Shown here: positions 1,694-11,027 of the stretch, one piece after another
How the letters are laid out: each line of letters starts with the position of its first letter
Numbering within the stretch: position 1 is the first letter of the stretch
Source of the DNA: Bacteriovoracaceae bacterium
GTDB taxonomy: Bacteria > Bdellovibrionota > Bacteriovoracia > Bacteriovoracales > Bacteriovoracaceae
Assembly: GCA_041586955.1 (NCBI GenBank)
Contig: JBFGZE010000079.1
Coordinates: 1-15,484, forward strand
Length of the DNA stretch: 15,484 nt
Direction: 5' to 3'
Program-made: the position numbers and the translations under genes
The notes under the pieces: generated by a model
What the model saw: only the letters and a program-made list of their open reading frames with translations
Told to the model about the DNA's origin: nothing
Databases searched by the model: none

Positions 1694-4600
1694 TTAATAG
1701 GCCTTATAGGCCGGCATAATCTCAAGACTATCAAGTCCAACTTGAAGTCGTGCCTTCATTTGACCGCTATCAAAATCGATCAGGGTCTCCAGAGCAAAAT
1801 CTTTATAAAGAATATTCTCAGCGGCGCTGGCACCTGCAGGAGGGATCTTATCGACATTTTTCTTTGCGTCAAGGATCGTTACGATATAGGCTTCACCTTT
1901 TGTGTATACCGCCATAGTAAGATCCGCTAATTCTTGATTGCCACCAACAATACTTAAAATACGAGTGGGATCTAACGGTATCTTCGATCGTACCGCATAC
2001 AAAATCGCATCTAAAAGGTCTTTTTTCATTAGCTTAAAGGCGCTTTTTTGTAACTTATCAAAGCTTGAGGGAGCAATTGGATTTTTCCTTAAGTTTTGAC
2101 GACGATTAATAACTCTTTTAATAAGATCCTTTTTAAAGGTAGAGAGCTTGGTAACCTTCTCTTGAACATTAACTAAGGAGAATGCCATTGGTGTCAATTT
2201 CCGATGCGCATAATATGAAACACCATCATCACCTGTTTTAAGAAGAGTAAACTTCTCACTATCTAAAGCGATTGAATGAGCATCATTTTTAAAGATTGAA
2301 TATTTATTACTTAGCGCCATCGCCGATTTACGAAACTCGTTATTCGCTGTGTATGAATATTTTTTCGCTATTTTAAGGAATGGTTTTCCAAGTTTAGTTA
2401 AACCCTCACTATTAAGGCCTAAAAAGCTTCTGGCCCATGAGAATACCTCATCAACACCGTTGACTTCTTCATTACGGATCTCATAGGGGTAAGGAACCTC
2501 TTCATTGGTCACGGTCTTAAAAGGTACCGCTTTTTTTAAGGGAGTACCTAAAGTCATATGGGCCAAGATATTATCAATTTCATCAGAAAATTTTGGATGG
2601 TTAGCAAAGCCACGATAATAATTCTCGCGTTGGCCATAACGTTGGGTTAAGGCGAGGATCGCCATAATTCTATCAACACCAACTCCACGTATTGAAATAT
2701 CTGAGCTATATTGAATAAGAGAGTCACTATTATCTTTAATATTATTTAGAAATTTACCGACTTCAGCAATAGGTAAATCGCCAGTGTTTTTATCACCTAA
2801 ATACTCTATGATATTATTGTCAAAACAAGTCTGTGGGTAATATCCAACTCTATTATTAATAGTTTCAGACATTGGAGCGAGAGGAAAAACGCCGACAATA
2901 CTTAAAGGTGTATCTGGCGTTTTATTAATCACTAGACAAGATTTTTCAGGAGTTTTAGCGACATTGAGGAAAAACCTCCCCGCAATATCTGTGGCGCCAA
3001 TGATATCATTAATGCGTTCGCATATTGGATAAAGGAAAGCGGCTAAATCTGAACAACCCGTCACCATTTGCTTACTGGAAAAGATATCTTCAAAGAAAGT
3101 ATACTGTTCCATAACGGAGCGGATATTTTGAAATTCGCGGTAACGAGCAATTAAATAGGTCTCATCATCATATTGTGAGAATCTCTTTTTCCCACGTCTA
3201 AAGTTCCTATAATGATAGTATCTATTGTAGCGGTCAATCTTATGTTGAACCACCTCTTTCAAAGATGAACCCTCATCTCCTGCTTGACAGGATAAGGATA
3301 ACCCTTCATTTTCATCTGTACAAAAATCGAATTCGCGAAGTGAGTTCGCATCTGCTTCAGCTTGTGCCAACTGATATTCCTGGTTACTTGCGAGCATCTC
3401 TTTAATTTCATCAACAGTAACGTTTCTTTGTTCTTCCGCAATTATTTTTTTAGAGAAATCGGTTACCAATTGCATTCGCAAAGAATTAGCAGCTTCAACA
3501 AATCGTTTTCCTTTTTGCGCAATCGAGTCAATCGCTTTTTCTCCGACCTTCACAATTTCACCATTTTTCATCTCAACTTCTTGAGCATAACCATATCGTA
3601 AGGCGGCGATGTCATATTTACCAAAACTTAAAAGATCATTCAGCGATGTAAAACCATAATCCATTATAGAGCTATAAGGAGCATGAACTTCTAGGCCAAG
3701 TTCATCCGCCTCTTCTTTTGAATAATAATTATCCTTATCAAATGAGCCCGCAAAATTATGACGAAGGCCCAAGGCATGACCAAATTCATGAATCAACGTG
3801 GAGGTATAAAAAAGAGGAACTATAATTTTCTCGGCAGCTCTTTTTTGCTTAATCGTTAAAGTATCCCATTCTTTAAGAACTCCATCTCTAGTCATAACAC
3901 CTTTAATTTTATCAATCCCAGGATAAATATTCTTCGCGATACCGGCGATATTCACTAAGTCTTTATGGTAAGCATTATTTTTGGCCAAATCCTTTAAAAA
4001 ATCATTATGCTCTTTAAGCTTTTTTTGAAGTCTCGCATTTTCTTTACCTAATTTTTTTAAGTAAAGAGGTGTTTCCTTTGGATCACGTTTCATATTCCTT
4101 TCAGCAAGACGCTTAAGAACTTCTTCTTTCCCATCAAAATTATGGTCATGCGATTGGGCCGTGACCTTAAAAGAAAAATCTTTATTTGAAGTGGACAACG
4201 AATGATTGCCTGAGGCAATAATGCTCTTAACATGAGAATGTTCAGAGGCATCGGACGCCATTCCTTCATGGCCAACTTTTGCCAATTTTTTATTTTTAAG
4301 TTCACGAGAAAGATCGACCATCTCACTCCATACCCAAGAAGAGAATGACTTTAAAACCCCACCATACATATTAATATGAGATTTAACGATTTCGCCCGTT
4401 CGAGGGTTGGTGACAGAGGGAGCATATCCCAATAATCCTGTTTGAATTGGATCTTCAATCAAAACGACCATATTATTGCGAATATCGCCAGGCCTTTTTC
4501 CAGAAGGCTCGACAATTTCCAAACGAAGATTTGAATTTGATTTAATCAGGGCATCATTAATTCGTTCCGCCACTTGAAAAGTTCTTTCCTTAAGAACCTT

Positions 4601-5545
4601 ATTTATACTCATCTTAGTATTATTAAAACTATCACTAAGGTGAAAACGAAGAACACGTGGTCCTCCATCGGCCGTTTTATTATTCCAACGATTCATATAA
4701 TATTTTTCTACGGGGCGCCCAAAATCGTGAAACTCTCCAATCTTGCTTTCGTATCCCTTAAAGAAACCAAATTTTGAATGATTGTCTTTAATATAATTAA
4801 ATTTTTCGTAATTTTTGCTGACAACATTCGACAAACGAATGAAGGAATAGAACTCTCTCGCTTTAAAAGAAAGCTCGCTAAATTGCTCAACTCTCTCTAT
4901 TCCCATTCGCTCAAAGCAATCACCAGTCTGTGCGACTGTGTAAGCATTTTCAATTTCAAAATTAAGAACACCTTTGGAAATTTCTGAAAAGGTTAAACCG
5001 GCTTCGCCTTTTGAAACACAGGAATCAGAAGCGACTGATCCCCAAAGTGAAATCGTATTAACTTCTTTTATTCTAACGCCAGAAAAATCAGGTTTAAAAA
5101 ACTTTTTCTGATGCCATTCGACATCTGACACTGTCTCTTCAGTATTGGTACATTCACCATACTTATCTTCTCGACAACGATAATCAATATAGGTACCCGG
5201 AATAGTCATAACCAATGAATCATTCATATCGTTACTAGAACCAGAATTTTCTTTTTCTTTTTCCCAAACCTCTAGGCCATCTTCTGCAAATTTAAAGAAA
5301 ACAATCTTATGATTGCCATCATAGAAGGCCCGTCCAGAGGCAAACTTAGGAATTTTTGATGTGGTTGGAATATAAAGATACTCGACCTTTTTCCCATTTT
5401 CTTCAACAAGAAATGAGTCCTTAATACTAAGAACCTCTGGCTCCTTATAAAGACTTTCATAGGGAACTTCCTTGGCACAGCCGACAATAACCGTTCCAAT
5501 CGCCAAGAGATTAAGTACGCTTGTCATTTTTTTCTTGATCAACAT
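1694..5545 (-). CDS. Large zinc-dependent metalloprotease lipoprotein (Met-zincin, DUF4953/EcxA-like)
   Basis: Lipobox IVG-C23, zinc motif HEFGHALGLRH (3758-3790), Met-turn SSIMDY, family-typical PGDIRNN and NPRTGEI motifs, RBS AAGGAAGG. Confidence 0.9.
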   Translation of the reverse strand: MLIKKKMTSVLNLLAIGTVIVGCAKEVPYESLYKEPEVLSIKDSFLVEENGKKVEYLYIPTTSKIPKFASGRAFYDGNHKIVFFKFAEDGLEVWEKEKENSGSSNDMNDSLVMTIPGTYIDYRCREDKYGECTNTEETVSDVEWHQKKFFKPDFSGVRIKEVNTISLWGSVASDSCVSKGEAGLTFSEISKGVLNFEIENAYTVAQTGDCFERMGIERVEQFSELSFKAREFYSFIRLSNVVSKNYEKFNYIKDNHSKFGFFKGYESKIGEFHDFGRPVEKYYMNRWNNKTADGGPRVLRFHLSDSFNNTKMSINKVLKERTFQVAERINDALIKSNSNLRLEIVEPSGKRPGDIRNNMVVLIEDPIQTGLLGYAPSVTNPRTGEIVKSHINMYGGVLKSFSSWVWSEMVDLSRELKNKKLAKVGHEGMASDASEHSHVKSIIASGNHSLSTSNKDFSFKVTAQSHDHNFDGKEEVLKRLAERNMKRDPKETPLYLKKLGKENARLQKKLKEHNDFLKDLAKNNAYHKDLVNIAGIAKNIYPGIDKIKGVMTRDGVLKEWDTLTIKQKRAAEKIIVPLFYTSTLIHEFGHALGLRHNFAGSFDKDNYYSKEEADELGLEVHAPYSSIMDYGFTSLNDLLSFGKYDIAALRYGYAQEVEMKNGEIVKVGEKAIDSIAQKGKRFVEAANSLRMQLVTDFSKKIIAEEQRNVTVDEIKEMLASNQEYQLAQAEADANSLREFDFCTDENEGLSLSCQAGDEGSSLKEVVQHKIDRYNRYYHYRNFRRGKKRFSQYDDETYLIARYREFQNIRSVMEQYTFFEDIFSSKQMVTGCSDLAAFLYPICERINDIIGATDIAGRFFLNVAKTPEKSCLVINKTPDTPLSIVGVFPLAPMSETINNRVGYYPQTCFDNNIIEYLGDKNTGDLPIAEVGKFLNNIKDNSDSLIQYSSDISIRGVGVDRIMAILALTQRYGQRENYYRGFANHPKFSDEIDNILAHMTLGTPLKKAVPFKTVTNEEVPYPYEIRNEEVNGVDEVFSWARSFLGLNSEGLTKLGKPFLKIAKKYSYTANNEFRKSAMALSNKYSIFKNDAHSIALDSEKFTLLKTGDDGVSYYAHRKLTPMAFSLVNVQEKVTKLSTFKKDLIKRVINRRQNLRKNPIAPSSFDKLQKSAFKLMKKDLLDAILYAVRSKIPLDPTRILSIVGGNQELADLTMAVYTKGEAYIVTILDAKKNVDKIPPAGASAAENILYKDFALETLIDFDSGQMKARLQVGLDSLEIMPAYKAY

Positions 5546-8643: not shown

Positions 8644-9306
8644 TTATAAAATTCCTGTTAACTTAACATCCACGACAACATCATCGTAAATCATTTTATC
8701 ACCGAGACCCTTGAAAAAAGAACCGGAGTTATATTTAATATTATAATGAACGCGGTTAAATTTAATTTGAGTTTTCGCAGTAATATTTTTTCCCTTAGGA
8801 ATTAAATTAACCATAAACATAATAGGCTTGGTAATACCCTTAATTGTCAGGTCCCCATTCACATCATAATGGCCACCTTTACCCATCATAACACTTTTGA
8901 TTTTTAGCTTCGCCTCTTTATGTTTTTCCACTGAAAAGAAATCATCTGATTTTAAATGGCCAACCAATTTCTTATTATAGTCTTTGTCTTTAAGATCAGT
9001 ACAAGTGATAGAAGTCATATCAATCACAAATGAACCACCAACCAAATCTTGTCCCATAAATTCTAATTGGCCTTTTTTAACTTTGACGTGGCCCGTATGT
9101 TGCCCTGTCACTTTGCGGCCAGTCCACTTAACAGAACTTTTGGCCACATTAATTGGCACGACTTTCTTTACGACCTTTATATTTGTTACTGTAGTTGTCG
9201 CTGTGCCCTTTTTGGCCGGCTTCACTTCAGGCTTTTGATTACCACTCGCTATCGCTGAAAAGCTAAGCACTGATAGTAAAAATAAATTAAATATCAACTT
9301 CATCAT
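8644..9306 (-). CDS. yceI: YceI-family lipid/polyisoprenoid-binding protein
   Basis: Signal peptide, SSVKWTGRK, HLKSDDFF and GDLTIKGITKPI motifs, RBS AGGAG. Confidence 0.92.
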   Translation of the reverse strand: MMKLIFNLFLLSVLSFSAIASGNQKPEVKPAKKGTATTTVTNIKVVKKVVPINVAKSSVKWTGRKVTGQHTGHVKVKKGQLEFMGQDLVGGSFVIDMTSITCTDLKDKDYNKKLVGHLKSDDFFSVEKHKEAKLKIKSVMMGKGGHYDVNGDLTIKGITKPIMFMVNLIPKGKNITAKTQIKFNRVHYNIKYNSGSFFKGLGDKMIYDDVVVDVKLTGIL

Positions 9307-9514
9307 GACAAACTCCTAAGTTAAAATTAGTCCCACTAGCCTAGGTATTAACATTAATAATGACAATACAAATCACAACCTTTCTTTTTGGCCAGATACA
9401 TTGTGATCGACTTTTATTTATAATGCGTCTCCCTAAAACCCGTTCCCTAGCTTATAATAATACTCTGCTGGCCCAAAGCATTAAAAAAAACCTCTACTTT
9501 TTGGCGAATTTAAT

Positions 9515-9542
9515 TTGATCTTGATTTGTTTTTTTATAGAAT
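9515..9542 (+). promoter_or_regulatory. Sigma-70 promoter candidate for the histone gene
   Basis: TTGATC-N16-TAGAAT. RBS GGGAG at 9566-9570. Confidence 0.55.
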
Positions 9543-9575
9543 AGTCTAAGGTTAAACCGTGTAAAGGGAGTTGAT

Positions 9576-9761
9576 ATGTCTAACCAAAAAGAAATGTTAT
9601 TAGTTGGATCAAAAACAAAAGAAGCTTTAAAAGGCACAGGGCTTAATGTATCTGGCGATGCCCTCGATAAATTAAATGAAAGAGTTCACGCCCTTGTTAA
9701 AGAAGCTCAAGAAAGATGCGAAGCTAACGGCAGAAAAACTGTTCGTTCAAGCGACTTCTAG
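9576..9761 (+). CDS. Bacterial histone-fold protein (DUF1931-like; Leptospira histone / Bd0055 type)
   Basis: 61 aa: LLVGSKTK (helix 1), NVSGDA (loop 1), long helix 2, NGRKTVRSSDF (loop 2 with R53-D60 clamp, truncated helix 3). Strong RBS and downstream terminator. Confidence 0.9.
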   Translation: MSNQKEMLLVGSKTKEALKGTGLNVSGDALDKLNERVHALVKEAQERCEANGRKTVRSSDF

Positions 9762-9765
9762 TTGG

Positions 9766-9791
9766 AGGGCCTTCAAGGCCCTTATTTTTTT
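9766..9791 (+). terminator. Rho-independent terminator after the histone gene
   Basis: AGGGCCT-TCA-AGGCCCT followed by TATTTTTTT. Confidence 0.75.
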
Positions 9792-10097
9792 ATGGAATCA
9801 AAAAAACTATACGAAAAATTACAAGAGGAAATTGAGAGTGCCCAATGGCATTTACTCAAACCTCATTATACTCGCGGCGCTCTTTATATTGTCGATCAAG
9901 ATCTTCAAATTGCAGAGGTTGCTCTTGCCCTCGCCGAAGACCGTGCTCAGCAAGTTAAACAATGGCTCGACGAAGGGGTTCTCTATCCTCCCATTGAGGA
10001 TGAAGTTAAACTTTGGGATTCCCAAGATACCACTCTTTTTTCTTTTTTAATTGTTCAGCCTTACGTACTTATTCAACAAGGTAGAGATAATGGGTAA
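9792..10097 (+). CDS. DUF2288-family protein (start moved to ATG 9792)
   Basis: AQWHLLKPHYTRGALYIVD, VALALAED..VKQWL and FLIVQPYVLIQ match my recollection of DUF2288. Confidence 0.8.
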   Translation: MESKKLYEKLQEEIESAQWHLLKPHYTRGALYIVDQDLQIAEVALALAEDRAQQVKQWLDEGVLYPPIEDEVKLWDSQDTTLFSFLIVQPYVLIQQGRDNG

Positions 10098-10491
10098 TTT
10101 TTTTCTTTTGGCCCTGATTTTTTCCTTCTCAATTGAGGCAAATCCCATAAAGGAATGTCCAGAAAAGCCTAATTGTGTCTCAACAAATACGAAGCAAAAA
10201 GAACGCCACATTAACCCCATTAAAATAACCGCGAATAAACAAGTGGCCTTCCAAAAAATCATTAAGATTTTAGAATCCACGTCAGGGTTCAAGATCATTT
10301 CAAAAACTGAAGACCATATTCAAGCGGAATACACCTCTTCGTTTTTTAAATTTGTCGACGATGTTGAGTTCTTTTTCTTGGATAAAGAAATTCATATGAG
10401 TTCGCGCTCGCGTAAAGGTCATTACGACTTTAATGCTAACCGCAAACGTTTAGAAAATATTCGCTTTCGCTTTCACCAAAACGATATTTAA
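10090..10491 (+). CDS. DUF1499-family exported protein (start moved to ATG 10090)
   Basis: CPEKPNCVST, FKFVDDVEF and SRSRKGHYDFNANRKR motifs. Signal peptide. Overlaps the upstream stop. Confidence 0.88.
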   Translation: MGNFFLLALIFSFSIEANPIKECPEKPNCVSTNTKQKERHINPIKITANKQVAFQKIIKILESTSGFKIISKTEDHIQAEYTSSFFKFVDDVEFFFLDKEIHMSSRSRKGHYDFNANRKRLENIRFRFHQNDI

Positions 10492-11027
10492 TTAAAACCT
10501 TCCGTCTCTTGGTATTGTTTCGTCGTCTCGAGATATGAGACGTAATGACTGCTATATTTTTTCAATTCATCTTTATTTAAGGCACGTACCACCTTAGCGG
10601 GATTACCTAAAATAAGAGAGCCCTCAGGATACTCTTTACCGGGAGGCACCACACTACCAGCGGCGACTAAAGAATTTTTACGAATAAGGGCTCCATCAAG
10701 GACAATTGCCCCCATGCCAATCAAACAATTATCTTCAATTGTACAAGCATGTAGGGTCGCTTGGTGACCGACAGATACCCCATTCCCGATAATGAGAGGA
10801 AGCTCTTCAGTCACATGCAACATACTCAAATCTTGTATATTAGTATTTTTGCCAATATGAACAGTATTCACATCACCACGGATAATCGTGTTAAACCATA
10901 TATTGGAATTTTCTCCCAAGCGCACGTCACCAATAACTTTAGCACCTGGAGCGAGGAACACTCCGGCCGCTAAGGCCGGGGACTTATCGAGAAAGGGAAA
11001 TATTTGGGTTTCTTTTATTTTTGCCAA
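10488..11027 (-). CDS. Gamma-class carbonic anhydrase family protein (YrdA/PaaY-like)
   Basis: Hexapeptide repeats, VIGDV, IRGD, NIQD, and three His ligands (LHV, GHQATLH). Confidence 0.92.
   Translation of the reverse strand: MAKIKETQIFPFLDKSPALAAGVFLAPGAKVIGDVRLGENSNIWFNTIIRGDVNTVHIGKNTNIQDLSMLHVTEELPLIIGNGVSVGHQATLHACTIEDNCLIGMGAIVLDGALIRKNSLVAAGSVVPPGKEYPEGSLILGNPAKVVRALNKDELKKYSSHYVSYLETTKQYQETEGFN

What the first reader, a model, noticed from the sequence alone, without database searches (positions are those of the whole stretch)
9576..9761. Stand-alone bacterial histone, apparently of the Leptospira-like face-to-face type
Seen: 61-aa ORF with promoter, GGGAG RBS and terminator; RKTV loop-2 motif; R53-D60 clamp; helix 2 of about 24 residues; helix 3 cut to SSDF; Ala where archaeal HMfB has its tetramer-forming His49; near-neutral charge (11 K/R versus 9 D/E). 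Established: bacterial histones exist, including Bdellovibrio Bd0055/HBb (dimer) and Leptospira histones. Inference from memory of those sequences: SGDA-x3-LNE and the terminal RxTVRxxDF fit the Leptospira face-to-face tetramer class better than Bd0055. This would imply histone-based, non-nucleosomal chromatin in this lineage that differs from B. bacteriovorus. The ORF is short enough to be missed or left hypothetical by pipelines.
Basis: partly seen in the sequence, partly recalled or inferred. Interest (0 to 1): 0.85.

Follow-up and report, generated by a model that had tools for sequence, protein, structure and literature searches.

The report
Face-to-face type bacterial histone gene

Summary
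The 61-aa ORF at 9576..9761 (+) is real, with a conserved promoter-like pair of hexamers, a GGGAG ribosome site and a terminator. It is a histone-fold protein of the alpha3-truncated family. Its best solved relative is HLp of Leptospira perolatii, the tetrameric DNA-wrapping face-to-face (FtF) histone (phmmer E 1.7e-12). HBb/Bd0055 scores E 2.4e-5. The ORF carries the FtF dimer-dimer residues (R47, N51, R53) that HBb lacks. A four-copy model places a confident second interface on those residues (ipSAE 0.88, best control 0.00). That result may be memory of the solved HLp and HTkC tetramers. Named relatives are Bacteriovoracaceae and Halobacteriovoraceae assemblies. Schwab et al. 2024 already list Bdellovibrionota class Bacteriovoracia as a home of FtF histones, and Hu et al. 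2025 solved HLp. So this is a new member of a known kind. The "histone-based chromatin" implication remains an inference, because the same genome holds four HU/IHF genes and expression could not be shown. Extras: a 75%-identical paralog with a lysine-rich N-terminal tail, a third, HBb-like histone fold behind a Cys/His-rich domain, and close copies in high-GC Gemmatimonadota assemblies.

The parts
9515..9542 (+). Promoter-like site: -35 TTGATC (9515-9520), 16-nt spacer, -10 TAGAAT (9537-9542)
   Evidence: Consensus scan, 9 of 12 positions. The TTG and TA.AATA are invariant in 9 of 9 aligned upstream regions of the window and 8 relatives, although mean column identity is 50%. Function is inferred; no transcript start was mapped.
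9566..9570 (+). Shine-Dalgarno-like GGGAG, 5 nt before the ATG
   Evidence: Read. A GGAG-type purine run at the same distance is seen in the 8 aligned relatives.
9576..9761 (+). [quoted passage not shown]
   Evidence: ORF. HLp 9qt0 is the best PDB match by sequence and by fold. R47/N51/R53/T55/D60 are invariant in 27 relatives. Four-copy model.
9765..9793 (+). Intrinsic-terminator-like hairpin (9765-9783) and T run
   Evidence: 8-pair stem, 5 G-C pairs, loop of 3, then ATTTTTTTAT. It lies between the histone's stop codon and the ATG of the DUF2288 gene at 9792.

Best explanation
[quoted passage not shown] It is the positional ortholog of a gene conserved across Bacteriovoracaceae and Halobacteriovoraceae.

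Proposed mechanism, by homology to HLp of Leptospira perolatii:
- Two chains form the usual head-to-tail histone-fold dimer.
- Two dimers join face to face through two equivalent interfaces. These are made by the end of helix 2 (R47, A50, N51), loop 2 (R53) and the one-turn helix 3 (S59, D60, F61), giving a closed torus-like homotetramer.
- DNA is bound without sequence specificity through backbone contacts from helix 1 lysines (K13, K15, K19) and the loop1/loop2 bridge (G27, K54, T55). It is wrapped around the perimeter (about 60 bp in HLp), which compacts the nucleoid.

Shown here: the ORF and its conservation, the fold, the nearest solved relative, the signature residues, and a predicted tetramer interface.

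Inferred: the tetramer in solution, DNA wrapping, abundance, and any role as a global chromatin protein.
For: Sequence:
- phmmer against PDB gives HLp (9qt0) E 1.7e-12, 49.9 bits, over residues 4-61. HBb (8cmp) gives 2.4e-5, HTkC (9f2c) 1e-4 and archaeal histone A 0.056.
- A profile of 27 relatives gives HLp 6e-18, HBb 1.1e-8 and HTkC 1.8e-8.

Fold:
- AlphaFold2 mean pLDDT is 83.4, with helices 12-20, 27-50 and a turn at 58-60.
- Foldseek ranks 1-9 are HLp, HBb and HTkC.

Signature residues:
- The papers give R48, N52, R54, T56 and D61 of the FtF logo as the most conserved residues. They say bacterial dimers lack R48 and N52.
- In HLp these are R49, N53 and R55, with the clamp R55-D62.
- The window has R47, N51, R53, T55 and D60, all invariant in 27 of 27 relatives.
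- HBb has S and D at the first two columns.
- Among the 150 listed library representatives, 148 gave 186 aligned domains, and 159 of the 186 carry R and N there.

Quaternary model:
- Four copies score ipSAE 0.88 (runs 0.88, 0.87, 0.89); the best of 3 controls is 0.00.
- The mark was reached by 20 of 30 proteins solved as pairs of one chain and by 1 of 23 solved as single chains.
- The runs agree in at least 94% of contacts, and the partner's pLDDT is at least 89.
- The calibration used two copies, not four, and my own alignment was used.
- The scored copy touches one copy along the whole fold (the dimer). It touches a second copy at residues 46-47, 50-51 and 59-60, which are the equivalents of HLp R49, S52, N53, T61 and D62.

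DNA contacts: 6 of the 9 HLp residues that touch DNA in 9QT1/9QT2 are identical in the window (S12, K13, K15, K19, G27, T55).

Lineage: most named relatives are titled Bacteriovoracaceae, Halobacteriovoraceae or Halobacteriovorax. This is the class in which FtF histones were reported.

Orthology: 40 of 91 relatives' loci keep at least one of the window's five neighbouring genes.
Against: - There is no experiment on this protein or on any Bacteriovoracia FtF histone in the papers read.
- Curated histone models stay below their cut-offs: Pfam PF00808 19.1 bits against 21.4, and NCBIfam archaea_histone 17.3 against 50.
- Three HLp interface or contact positions differ: S52 to A50, T61 to S59, and T56 to K54. 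L47 of the HLp dimer core is Q45 here.
- The four-copy pass may be memory of the solved HLp and HTkC tetramers, and its calibration does not cover four copies.
- The tree (113 rows, 56 columns; 69 of 110 inner branches open) gives no supported grouping with the Leptospira clade. It nests the single HBb-like anchor inside the R/N sequences.
- The genome has four HU/IHF-family genes over the cut-off, unlike Leptospira, which is reported to have none. This histone therefore need not be the main nucleoid protein.
- Net charge is only about +2.
Confidence: 0.8

Rival explanations
1. It is an HBb/Bd0055-like 'bacterial dimer' histone that stays a dimer and bends DNA rather than wrapping it.
For: It has the same alpha3-truncated fold. 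Foldseek TM-scores to HBb chains (0.75-0.76 by query length) are as high as to HLp (0.71). It keeps the R-K-T of HBb's loop 2, whereas HLp has R-T-T. It comes from the same phylum as Bdellovibrio.
Against: HBb scores 22-30 bits lower than HLp. R47 and N51 are present and invariant, whereas HBb has S and D and the HBb-like anchor P0257 has V and D. A confident second interface is modelled on those residues. The literature assigns dimers to class Bdellovibrionia and FtF to class Bacteriovoracia.
Confidence: 0.07
2. It is an FtF-fold protein that works mainly in mixed dimers or tetramers with the lysine-tailed paralog of the same genome, as a variant subunit that dilutes tails rather than as a homotetramer.
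For: A 75%-identical paralog with a Lys-rich N-terminal tail and the same R/N/R/T/D residues lies on contig C20. In 5 of the 7 public assemblies that contributed two loci to the 80 kept, one locus is tail-less and the other Lys-tailed.
Against: No co-assembly was modelled or measured. The two genes are unlinked and each has its own conserved neighbourhood: none of the 15 tailed loci shares a window neighbour. The paralog has a 3-residue insertion in loop 1, which sits at the dimer's loop1-loop2 bridge. The homotetramer model is already confident.
Confidence: 0.2
3. It is a true FtF histone but a minor or condition-specific DNA-binding protein. The nucleoid would be organised chiefly by HU/IHF, so 'histone-based chromatin' does not follow.
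For: There are four PF00216 genes over the cut-off in this 88%-complete assembly. In Thermococcus the FtF histone HTkC is expressed 34 times lower than the main histone. No transcript evidence was found here.
Against: [quoted passage not shown] B. bacteriovorus has HU and IHF and still expresses HBb highly. The protein is very conserved (72-87% identity over 119 listed relatives), and its promoter elements are conserved.
Confidence: 0.25
4. The ORF is a chance open frame or a mis-called small gene.
For: It is only 61 codons, and curated family models are below threshold.
Against: 774 homologs at E <= 0.001. There are 21 invariant columns in 27 relatives. Position and signals are conserved. The fold model is confident and matches solved histones.
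Confidence: 0.01

Closest known systems
HLp of Leptospira perolatii (PDB 9QT0, 9QT1, 9QT2; Hu et al. 2025, PMC12701072), bacterial FtF histone
   Same: - It is the best match by sequence (E 1.7e-12) and by fold (50% identity over 54 columns).
- Same length class, short helix 2 and one-turn helix 3.
- Same tetramer residues R/N/R and the same R-D clamp.
- Same S-G-D-A-x3-L-N-E stretch.
- 6 of 9 DNA-contact residues are identical.
   Different: - The window protein has almost no N-terminal tail (the fold starts about residue 6), whereas Leptospirales histones are said always to carry one.
- A50, S59 and K54 replace S52, T61 and T56.
- The genome has HU/IHF and two further histone-fold genes, whereas Leptospira is reported to have a single histone and no HU.
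- There is no SMC / methionine aminopeptidase neighbourhood. The neighbours are YceI, DUF2288 and DUF1499.
HTkC of Thermococcus kodakarensis (PDB 9F2C; Schwab et al. 2024, PMC11390915), archaeal FtF histone
   Same: Alpha3-truncated fold, torus-like tetramer class, and R at the R47 column.
   Different: It is weaker by sequence (E 1e-4 single sequence, 1.8e-8 profile). It has E rather than N at the N51 column and a two-residue longer loop 1. It is archaeal.
HBb / Bd0055 of Bdellovibrio bacteriovorus (PDB 8CMP, 8FVX, 9EZZ), 'bacterial dimer' histone
   Same: Same phylum, the same alpha3-truncated fold, and R-K-T-x4-D in loop 2.
   Different: HBb has S and D where the window has R47 and N51. It scores 22-30 bits lower than HLp. 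It is a strict dimer that bends DNA, according to the papers.
Histone doublets of Bacteriovorax sp. ICPB 3264 and Peredibacter starrii (PMC11789641, PMC13147790)
   Same: Same class (Bacteriovoracia) and same fold. Two-domain proteins of about 118-130 aa head the representative search with the window protein.
   Different: Those are two folds in one chain, and the authors describe them as like the HBb dimer. The window gene is a singlet. No doublet was found in its genome with this query (3 matches).
Archaeal nucleosomal histones (HMfB type; Pfam PF00808)
   Same: Histone fold, R-K-T loop 2 and R-D clamp.
   Different: In the nucleosomal histones helix 3 is about 10 residues and helix 2 is 4-5 residues longer. 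The window protein is below the Pfam cut-off. Archaeal histone A chains score only E 0.056.

Membership tests
Face-to-face (FtF) alpha3 histones (Schwab et al. 2024) | Histone fold with helix 3 cut to 3-4 residues and a shortened helix 2 | tested here: met
   The AlphaFold2 model has helices 12-20 and 27-50 and a turn at 58-60, with mean pLDDT 83.4. Foldseek ranks 1-9 are alpha3 histones.
Face-to-face (FtF) alpha3 histones (Schwab et al. 2024) | Conserved dimer-dimer residues R48 and N52 of the FtF logo (HLp R49, N53) | tested here: met
   R47 and N51 align with HLp R49 and N53. They are invariant in 27 of 27 relatives.
Face-to-face (FtF) alpha3 histones (Schwab et al. 2024) | R-x-T-x4-D motif (logo R54, T56, D61) with the R-D clamp | tested here: met
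   R53, T55 and D60 are present and invariant. The salt bridge itself was not measured in the model.
Face-to-face (FtF) alpha3 histones (Schwab et al. 2024) | Predicted homotetramer with a confident dimer-dimer interface (the feature by which the family was defined) | tested here: met
   Four copies score ipSAE 0.88 against a best control of 0.00. Contacts with expected error under 8 A fall between the scored copy and a non-partner copy at residues 46-47, 50-51 and 59-60. The model may remember 9QT0 and 9F2C. The program differs from the one used by the authors.
Face-to-face (FtF) alpha3 histones (Schwab et al. 2024) | Tetramer in solution and DNA wrapping (shown for HLp) | not testable with these tools
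   This needs SEC-MALS, MNase and tethered-particle assays on the protein.
Face-to-face (FtF) alpha3 histones (Schwab et al. 2024) | Clusters with bacterial FtF histones rather than bacterial dimers by sequence | tested here: inconclusive
   Pairwise and profile scores clearly favour HLp over HBb. The Leptospira anchor P0196 behaves the same way. However, the 113-row tree is largely unresolved and held only one HBb-like anchor. The published CLANS set was not available.
Bacterial dimer histones (HBb/Bd0055 type) | Absence of the FtF residues R48 and N52, and sequence clustering with HBb | tested here: not met
   The window has both residues. HBb has S and D, and the HBb-like P0257 has V and D. 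HBb scores 27.6 bits against 49.9 for HLp.
Archaeal/eukaryotic nucleosomal histones (Pfam PF00808 / NCBIfam NF043032) | Score over the curated cut-off; helix 3 of about 10 residues | tested here: not met
   Scores are 19.1 bits against 21.4 and 17.3 against 50. Helix 3 is one turn.
DUF1931 pseudodimeric histones (the molecule name carried by PDB entry 9qt0) | Two histone folds in one chain; lack of DNA-binding signature residues | tested here: not met
   The window protein is a single fold of 61 aa. The paper that deposited 9QT0 treats DUF1931 proteins as a separate cluster and HLp as an FtF histone. The PDB molecule name is therefore not a family assignment. No DUF1931 Pfam hit appeared at E <= 10.

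The most novel reading that the evidence does not exclude
Bacteriovoracaceae-type genomes run a small histone-variant system. It would consist of a tail-less FtF histone (this gene, at a conserved locus), an unlinked FtF paralog with a lysine/alanine-rich N-terminal tail, and a third histone fold fused to a Cys/His-rich domain. The tail-less and tailed subunits would co-assemble into mixed tetramers, so the tail dose per particle could be tuned, for instance between the attack and growth phases of a predator. That would be a bacterial analogue of histone variants. In the main text of Schwab et al. 2024, 'paralog' and 'heterotetramer' occur 0 times. Its supplements were not read.
Probability: 0.15. 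Interest if true: 0.6.

Novelty: new member of a known kind. Interest (0 to 1): 0.3.

Why it matters
The gene itself adds a further member to a family that is already classified (Schwab et al. 2024) and structurally solved in bacteria (Hu et al. 2025), in the very class where it was reported. Its value is practical in two ways. First, the finding confirms that a 61-codon gene of this family can be recognised from sequence alone. In NCBI records its relatives are still named 'hypothetical protein', and curated Pfam and NCBIfam models miss it. Second, the Bacteriovoracia copies offer a natural contrast to Leptospira. They are tail-less, they coexist with HU/IHF, and they have a lysine-tailed paralog. 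Cultured Halobacteriovorax strains carry relatives, so tetramer formation, wrapping and the role of tails could be tested in a tractable, non-pathogenic predator.

Tried and rejected
- Pizza designer-protein hits: about 20 beta-propeller 'Pizza' chains appear between HLp and HBb in the single-sequence PDB search. They have 0 stretches passing on their own and are sums of six weak repeats (i-Evalue in the hundreds) to residues 4-32. They vanish with the profile query, so they are an artefact.
- Tree: 113 rows by 56 columns, quick method. I left out all proteins with two domains, rows with more than 4 gaps, proteins P0271-P0279, and 107 of the 119 close homologs (12 kept). 69 of 110 inner branches are open and 2 are starred. 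The window sits in a 15-row set (SH-aLRT 90) with close kin and its own tailed paralog. Nothing deeper is resolved, so the tree neither supports nor rejects a special tie to Leptospira.
- Expression: the run search for RNA found two runs, each holding 0.04 of the sampled words. When laid, one run gave nothing and the other gave a single 59-base piece at 9576-9634 that runs on unlike the window. This is no evidence of expression either way.
- Earlier notes of this scan: the look-up by genome for 'histone' returned nothing.
- Pfam ZZ domain in the third histone-fold protein: not found at E <= 1. The 'ZZ-like' label rests only on the Cys/His pattern and the published architecture.
- A Bd0055-like singlet or a doublet in the window's own genome: not found with the window protein (3 matches) or with PF00808 (4 weak matches, of which two are the FtF genes). 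The assembly is 88% complete.
- His49 of HMfB: not tested, because no HMfB sequence was obtained from a tool.

Full report

Yes. The ORF 9576..9761 (+) starts with ATG and gives 61 residues.
- GGGAG lies at 9566-9570, five bases before the ATG.
- A consensus scan finds TTGATC-16-TAGAAT at 9515..9542 and a hairpin plus T run at 9765..9783. Alone these are weak: 3 promoter-like sites against 1.6 +/- 1.2 in shuffles, and 1 terminator against 0.4 +/- 0.6.
- I aligned the 113 bases before the ATG with the same stretch of 8 relatives' loci, which I chose among the tail-less loci. The TTG of the -35 and TA.AATA of the -10 are invariant in 9 of 9, while mean column identity is 50%. That is a phylogenetic footprint of a promoter.
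- The AlphaFold2 model (27-row alignment, mean pLDDT 83.4, pTM 0.62) has helices at 12-20 and 27-50 and one turn at 58-60.
- The comparison with His49 of HMfB was not tested, because I had no HMfB sequence from a tool.

**2. Is it more than chance?**

- 774 of 775 candidates in the 5.8-billion-protein collection match at E <= 0.001. The 119 listed besides the window's own are 72-87% identical. JGI names some of them 'histone H3/H4', and NCBI names them 'hypothetical protein'.
- In 27 sequences that I picked from the 120 listed, for spread of identity and long contigs, 21 columns are invariant. These include R47, N51, G52, R53, K54, T55 and D60.
- In the library of 50%-identity representatives, 320 proteins match at E <= 0.001 and 25 at E <= 1e-10.

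**3. What is it?**

Curated family models only graze it. Pfam PF00808 gives 19.1 bits against a cut-off of 21.4. NCBIfam archaea_histone gives 17.3 against 50.

Solved structures are decisive.
- By phmmer, the best chain is 9qt0_A (E 1.7e-12, 49.9 bits, residues 4-61 on 8-65). After it come HBb chains 8cmp (2.4e-5) and 8fvx (3.6e-5), 9f2c (1e-4) and archaeal histone A (0.056).
- The 'Pizza' designer proteins listed in between are sums of six sub-threshold repeats. They disappear with a profile query.
- With the profile of the 27 relatives: 9qt0 6e-18 (67.7 bits), 8cmp 1.1e-8 (38.0), 9f2c 1.8e-8 (37.3), HmvA 1.5e-4, and archaeal histone A about 5e-4.
- Entry 9QT0 is HLp of Leptospira perolatii, although its PDB molecule name reads 'DUF1931 domain-containing protein'. 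The paper treats DUF1931 proteins as a separate family.
- Foldseek with the model puts HLp first (E 3.7e-4, TM 0.71/0.76, rmsd 1.9, 50% identity). HBb and HTkC chains fill ranks 3-9, and NF-Y and nucleosomal histones follow.
- TM-scores to HBb (0.75-0.76) are as high as to HLp. The monomer fold therefore does not separate the subtypes; sequence and interface residues do.

**4. Which subtype?**

I read the introduction, bioinformatic, structure, DNA-complex and discussion sections of PMC12701072. I also read the FtF section and passages of PMC11390915.
- Their most conserved residues are logo positions 48, 52, 54, 56 and 61.
- In the HLp crystal the dimer-dimer contacts are R49, S52 and N53 against F63, T61 and R55. 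The clamp is R55-D62.

The printed alignment gives window position = HLp position minus 2. The equivalents are R47, A50, N51, R53, S59, D60 and F61. Five are identical and two are conservative or smaller (S to A, T to S). HBb has S and D at the R47 and N51 columns, and HTkC has R and E.

I aligned all stored proteins to the profile. Of the 150 listed representatives, 148 gave 186 domains. Of those domains, 159 have R and N at the two columns. The HBb-like anchor P0257 (8cmp E 3.2e-13) has V and D. The Leptospira anchor P0196 (9qt0 E 1.4e-23, named Leptospira sp.) has R and N.

**5. Quaternary model**

- One job with four copies and the 27-row alignment gave ipSAE 0.88 (runs 0.88, 0.87, 0.89). 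The best of 3 controls was 0.00.
- The mark was reached by 20 of 30 proteins solved as pairs of one chain and by 1 of 23 solved as single chains.
- The runs agree in at least 94% of contacts, and the partner's pLDDT is at least 89.
- The calibration held two copies, not four, and used other alignments. Like complexes (9QT0, 9F2C) are solved, so the pass may be memory and shows likeness, not binding.
- What makes it informative is the interface list. The scored copy touches one copy along the entire fold, which is the handshake dimer. It also touches another copy at residues 46-47, 50-51 and 59-60, with expected error under 8 A. These are the positions that form the HLp tetramer interface.

**6. 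Tree**

A quick maximum-likelihood tree of 113 single-domain rows by 56 columns is mostly unresolved. The rows left out are listed under Tried and rejected.
- The window sits in a 15-row set (SH-aLRT 90) with its close kin and its own paralog.
- The Leptospira anchor sits in another set.
- The one HBb-like anchor and the genome's third histone fold nest among R/N sequences.

The tree does not contradict the subtype, and it does not show a special tie to Leptospira. 'Leptospira-like' should be read as 'same class', not 'same clade'.

**7. Whose genome?**

- The window is contig C79 of a 3.46-Mb assembly of 194 contigs, 88% complete. The window has 37.7% G+C.
- Of 226 pattern matches in the species-representative genomes, 174 encode a relative and the best 80 were kept. 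Most titles read Bacteriovoracaceae, Halobacteriovoraceae, Halobacteriovorax, Bacteriovorax, Bdellovibrionales/-ota or Oligoflexia. Two are cultured-strain records of Halobacteriovorax.
- In 41 genomes (the window's own and 40 relatives), 31 have a match at E <= 0.01, and 22 of 24 in the window's own family do. The weaker matches are to other alpha3 histones.
- This is the class for which Schwab et al. state that bacterial FtF histones occur: 'Bdellovibrionota (class Bacteriovoracia)'.

**8. Context**

- The gene stands alone between a divergent YceI gene and a DUF2288-DUF1499 pair, followed by a hexapeptide transferase. It does not have the SMC / methionine aminopeptidase neighbourhood reported for Leptospira.
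- Of 91 relatives' loci (11, 80), 40 keep at least one of five window neighbours: DUF1499 30, DUF2288 21, hexapeptide 16, YceI 13, NUDIX 7. The window gene is therefore a positional ortholog within the group.

**9. How it most likely works**

By homology to HLp, the protein forms a head-to-tail dimer. Two dimers close face to face into a rigid torus. The perimeter carries helix 1 lysines and the loop1/loop2 bridge. Of the nine HLp residues that touch DNA in 9QT1/9QT2 (A13, S14, K15, K17, K21, T27, G29, T56, T57), six are identical here (S12, K13, K15, K19, G27, T55). One becomes basic (K54). HLp wraps about 60 bp and protects 35-72 bp from MNase. For the window protein all of this is inference.

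**10. What tempers the chromatin claim**

- The genome has four HU/IHF-family genes over Pfam's cut-off.
- FtF histones range from top-2% expression (Leptospira, Haloferax) to 34-fold below the main histone (Thermococcus).
- I found no usable RNA data.

**11. Other histone genes of the same genome**

- The window protein finds two more places.
- On C20 there is a 78-aa paralog counted from its ATG. It is 75% identical, has a three-residue insertion in loop 1, carries the same R/N/R/T/D residues, and has a lysine-rich N-terminal tail.
- On C70 there is a 162-aa protein with a Cys/His-rich N-terminal part and a C-terminal alpha3 fold with Q and S at the two columns. This matches the published 'ZZ histone' architecture, but Pfam finds no ZZ domain at E <= 1.
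- Among the 80 public loci, 15 encode a Lys/Ala-rich tail and 65 do not. Seven assemblies contributed two loci. In five of these, one locus is tail-less and the other tailed.
[quoted passage not shown] Their main text has no occurrence of 'paralog' or 'heterotetramer', and I did not read their supplements.

**12. Novelty and verdict**

- The class, its defining residues, a bacterial crystal structure and its presence in Bacteriovoracia are all published. Doublet histones of Bacteriovorax and Peredibacter are published too.
- Literature searches run: 'bacterial histone' with 'face-to-face', 'histone' with 'Halobacteriovorax', and 'face-to-face histone' or 'Bacteriovoracia'. In their listings, and in the passages I read, I saw no experimental work on a Bacteriovoracia FtF singlet.
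This is a new member of a known kind, of modest interest.

Noticed in passing
Own genome contig C20:9442-9621 (-); locus L002 1501..1734 (-): A second FtF-type histone gene, 75% identical to the window's. It has the same R/N/R/T/D residues, a three-residue insertion in loop 1 and a lysine-rich N-terminal tail of about 18 residues (78 aa from its ATG). 15 of 80 public loci carry such tails. In 5 of 7 assemblies with two loci, one is tail-less and one tailed.
   Followed up: partly
Own genome contig C70; locus L003 882..1370 (+): A 162-aa protein with a Cys/His-rich N-terminal part and a C-terminal alpha3 histone fold that has Q and S at the FtF R/N columns. This fits the published 'ZZ histone' architecture, but Pfam finds no ZZ domain at E <= 1.
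   Followed up: partly
Own genome: C167:1204-1467, C20:29321-29587, C16:38154-38420, C1:100763-101035: Four HU/IHF-family (PF00216) genes over the curated cut-off coexist with the three histone-fold genes. Leptospira, by contrast, is reported to have no HU.
   Followed up: no
Loci L036, L044, L046, L051, L056, L059 (records titled Gemmatimonadota/-etes): These loci carry histones 77-86% identical to the window's low-GC protein. They lie in flanks of 63-68.5% G+C, and the genes themselves have 56-63% G+C. They therefore sit in truly high-GC genomes and are not mis-binned Bacteriovoracia contigs. This suggests transfer across phyla with very strong conservation of the protein. Gemmatimonadota is not among the phyla named in the passages I read.
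   Followed up: partly
Representative proteins P0121-P0126, P0128, P0129 and others: Many of the best library representatives are proteins of about 114-150 aa with two matched stretches, that is, tandem alpha3 histone doublets. Most of their domains carry the R/N pair. Doublets are published for Bacteriovorax and Peredibacter, but there they are described as HBb-like.
   Followed up: no
window 8644..11027 and loci L013-L070: Conserved neighbourhood of the tail-less histone: YceI (divergent), histone, DUF2288, DUF1499, hexapeptide transferase. 40 of 91 loci keep at least one neighbour, and none of the 15 tailed loci does.
   Followed up: yes
window 1694..5545 (-): A 1283-aa ORF with a Met-zincin (DUF4953 / Peptidase_M66) core at residues 580-685. 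The rest has no Pfam match. It is possibly a secreted protease of a predator.
   Followed up: no
PDB entry 9qt0 as listed: The molecule name 'DUF1931 domain-containing protein' attached to HLp is at odds with the depositors' own paper, which puts DUF1931 pseudodimers in a separate cluster. A name-based reading of the hit would mislead.
   Followed up: yes
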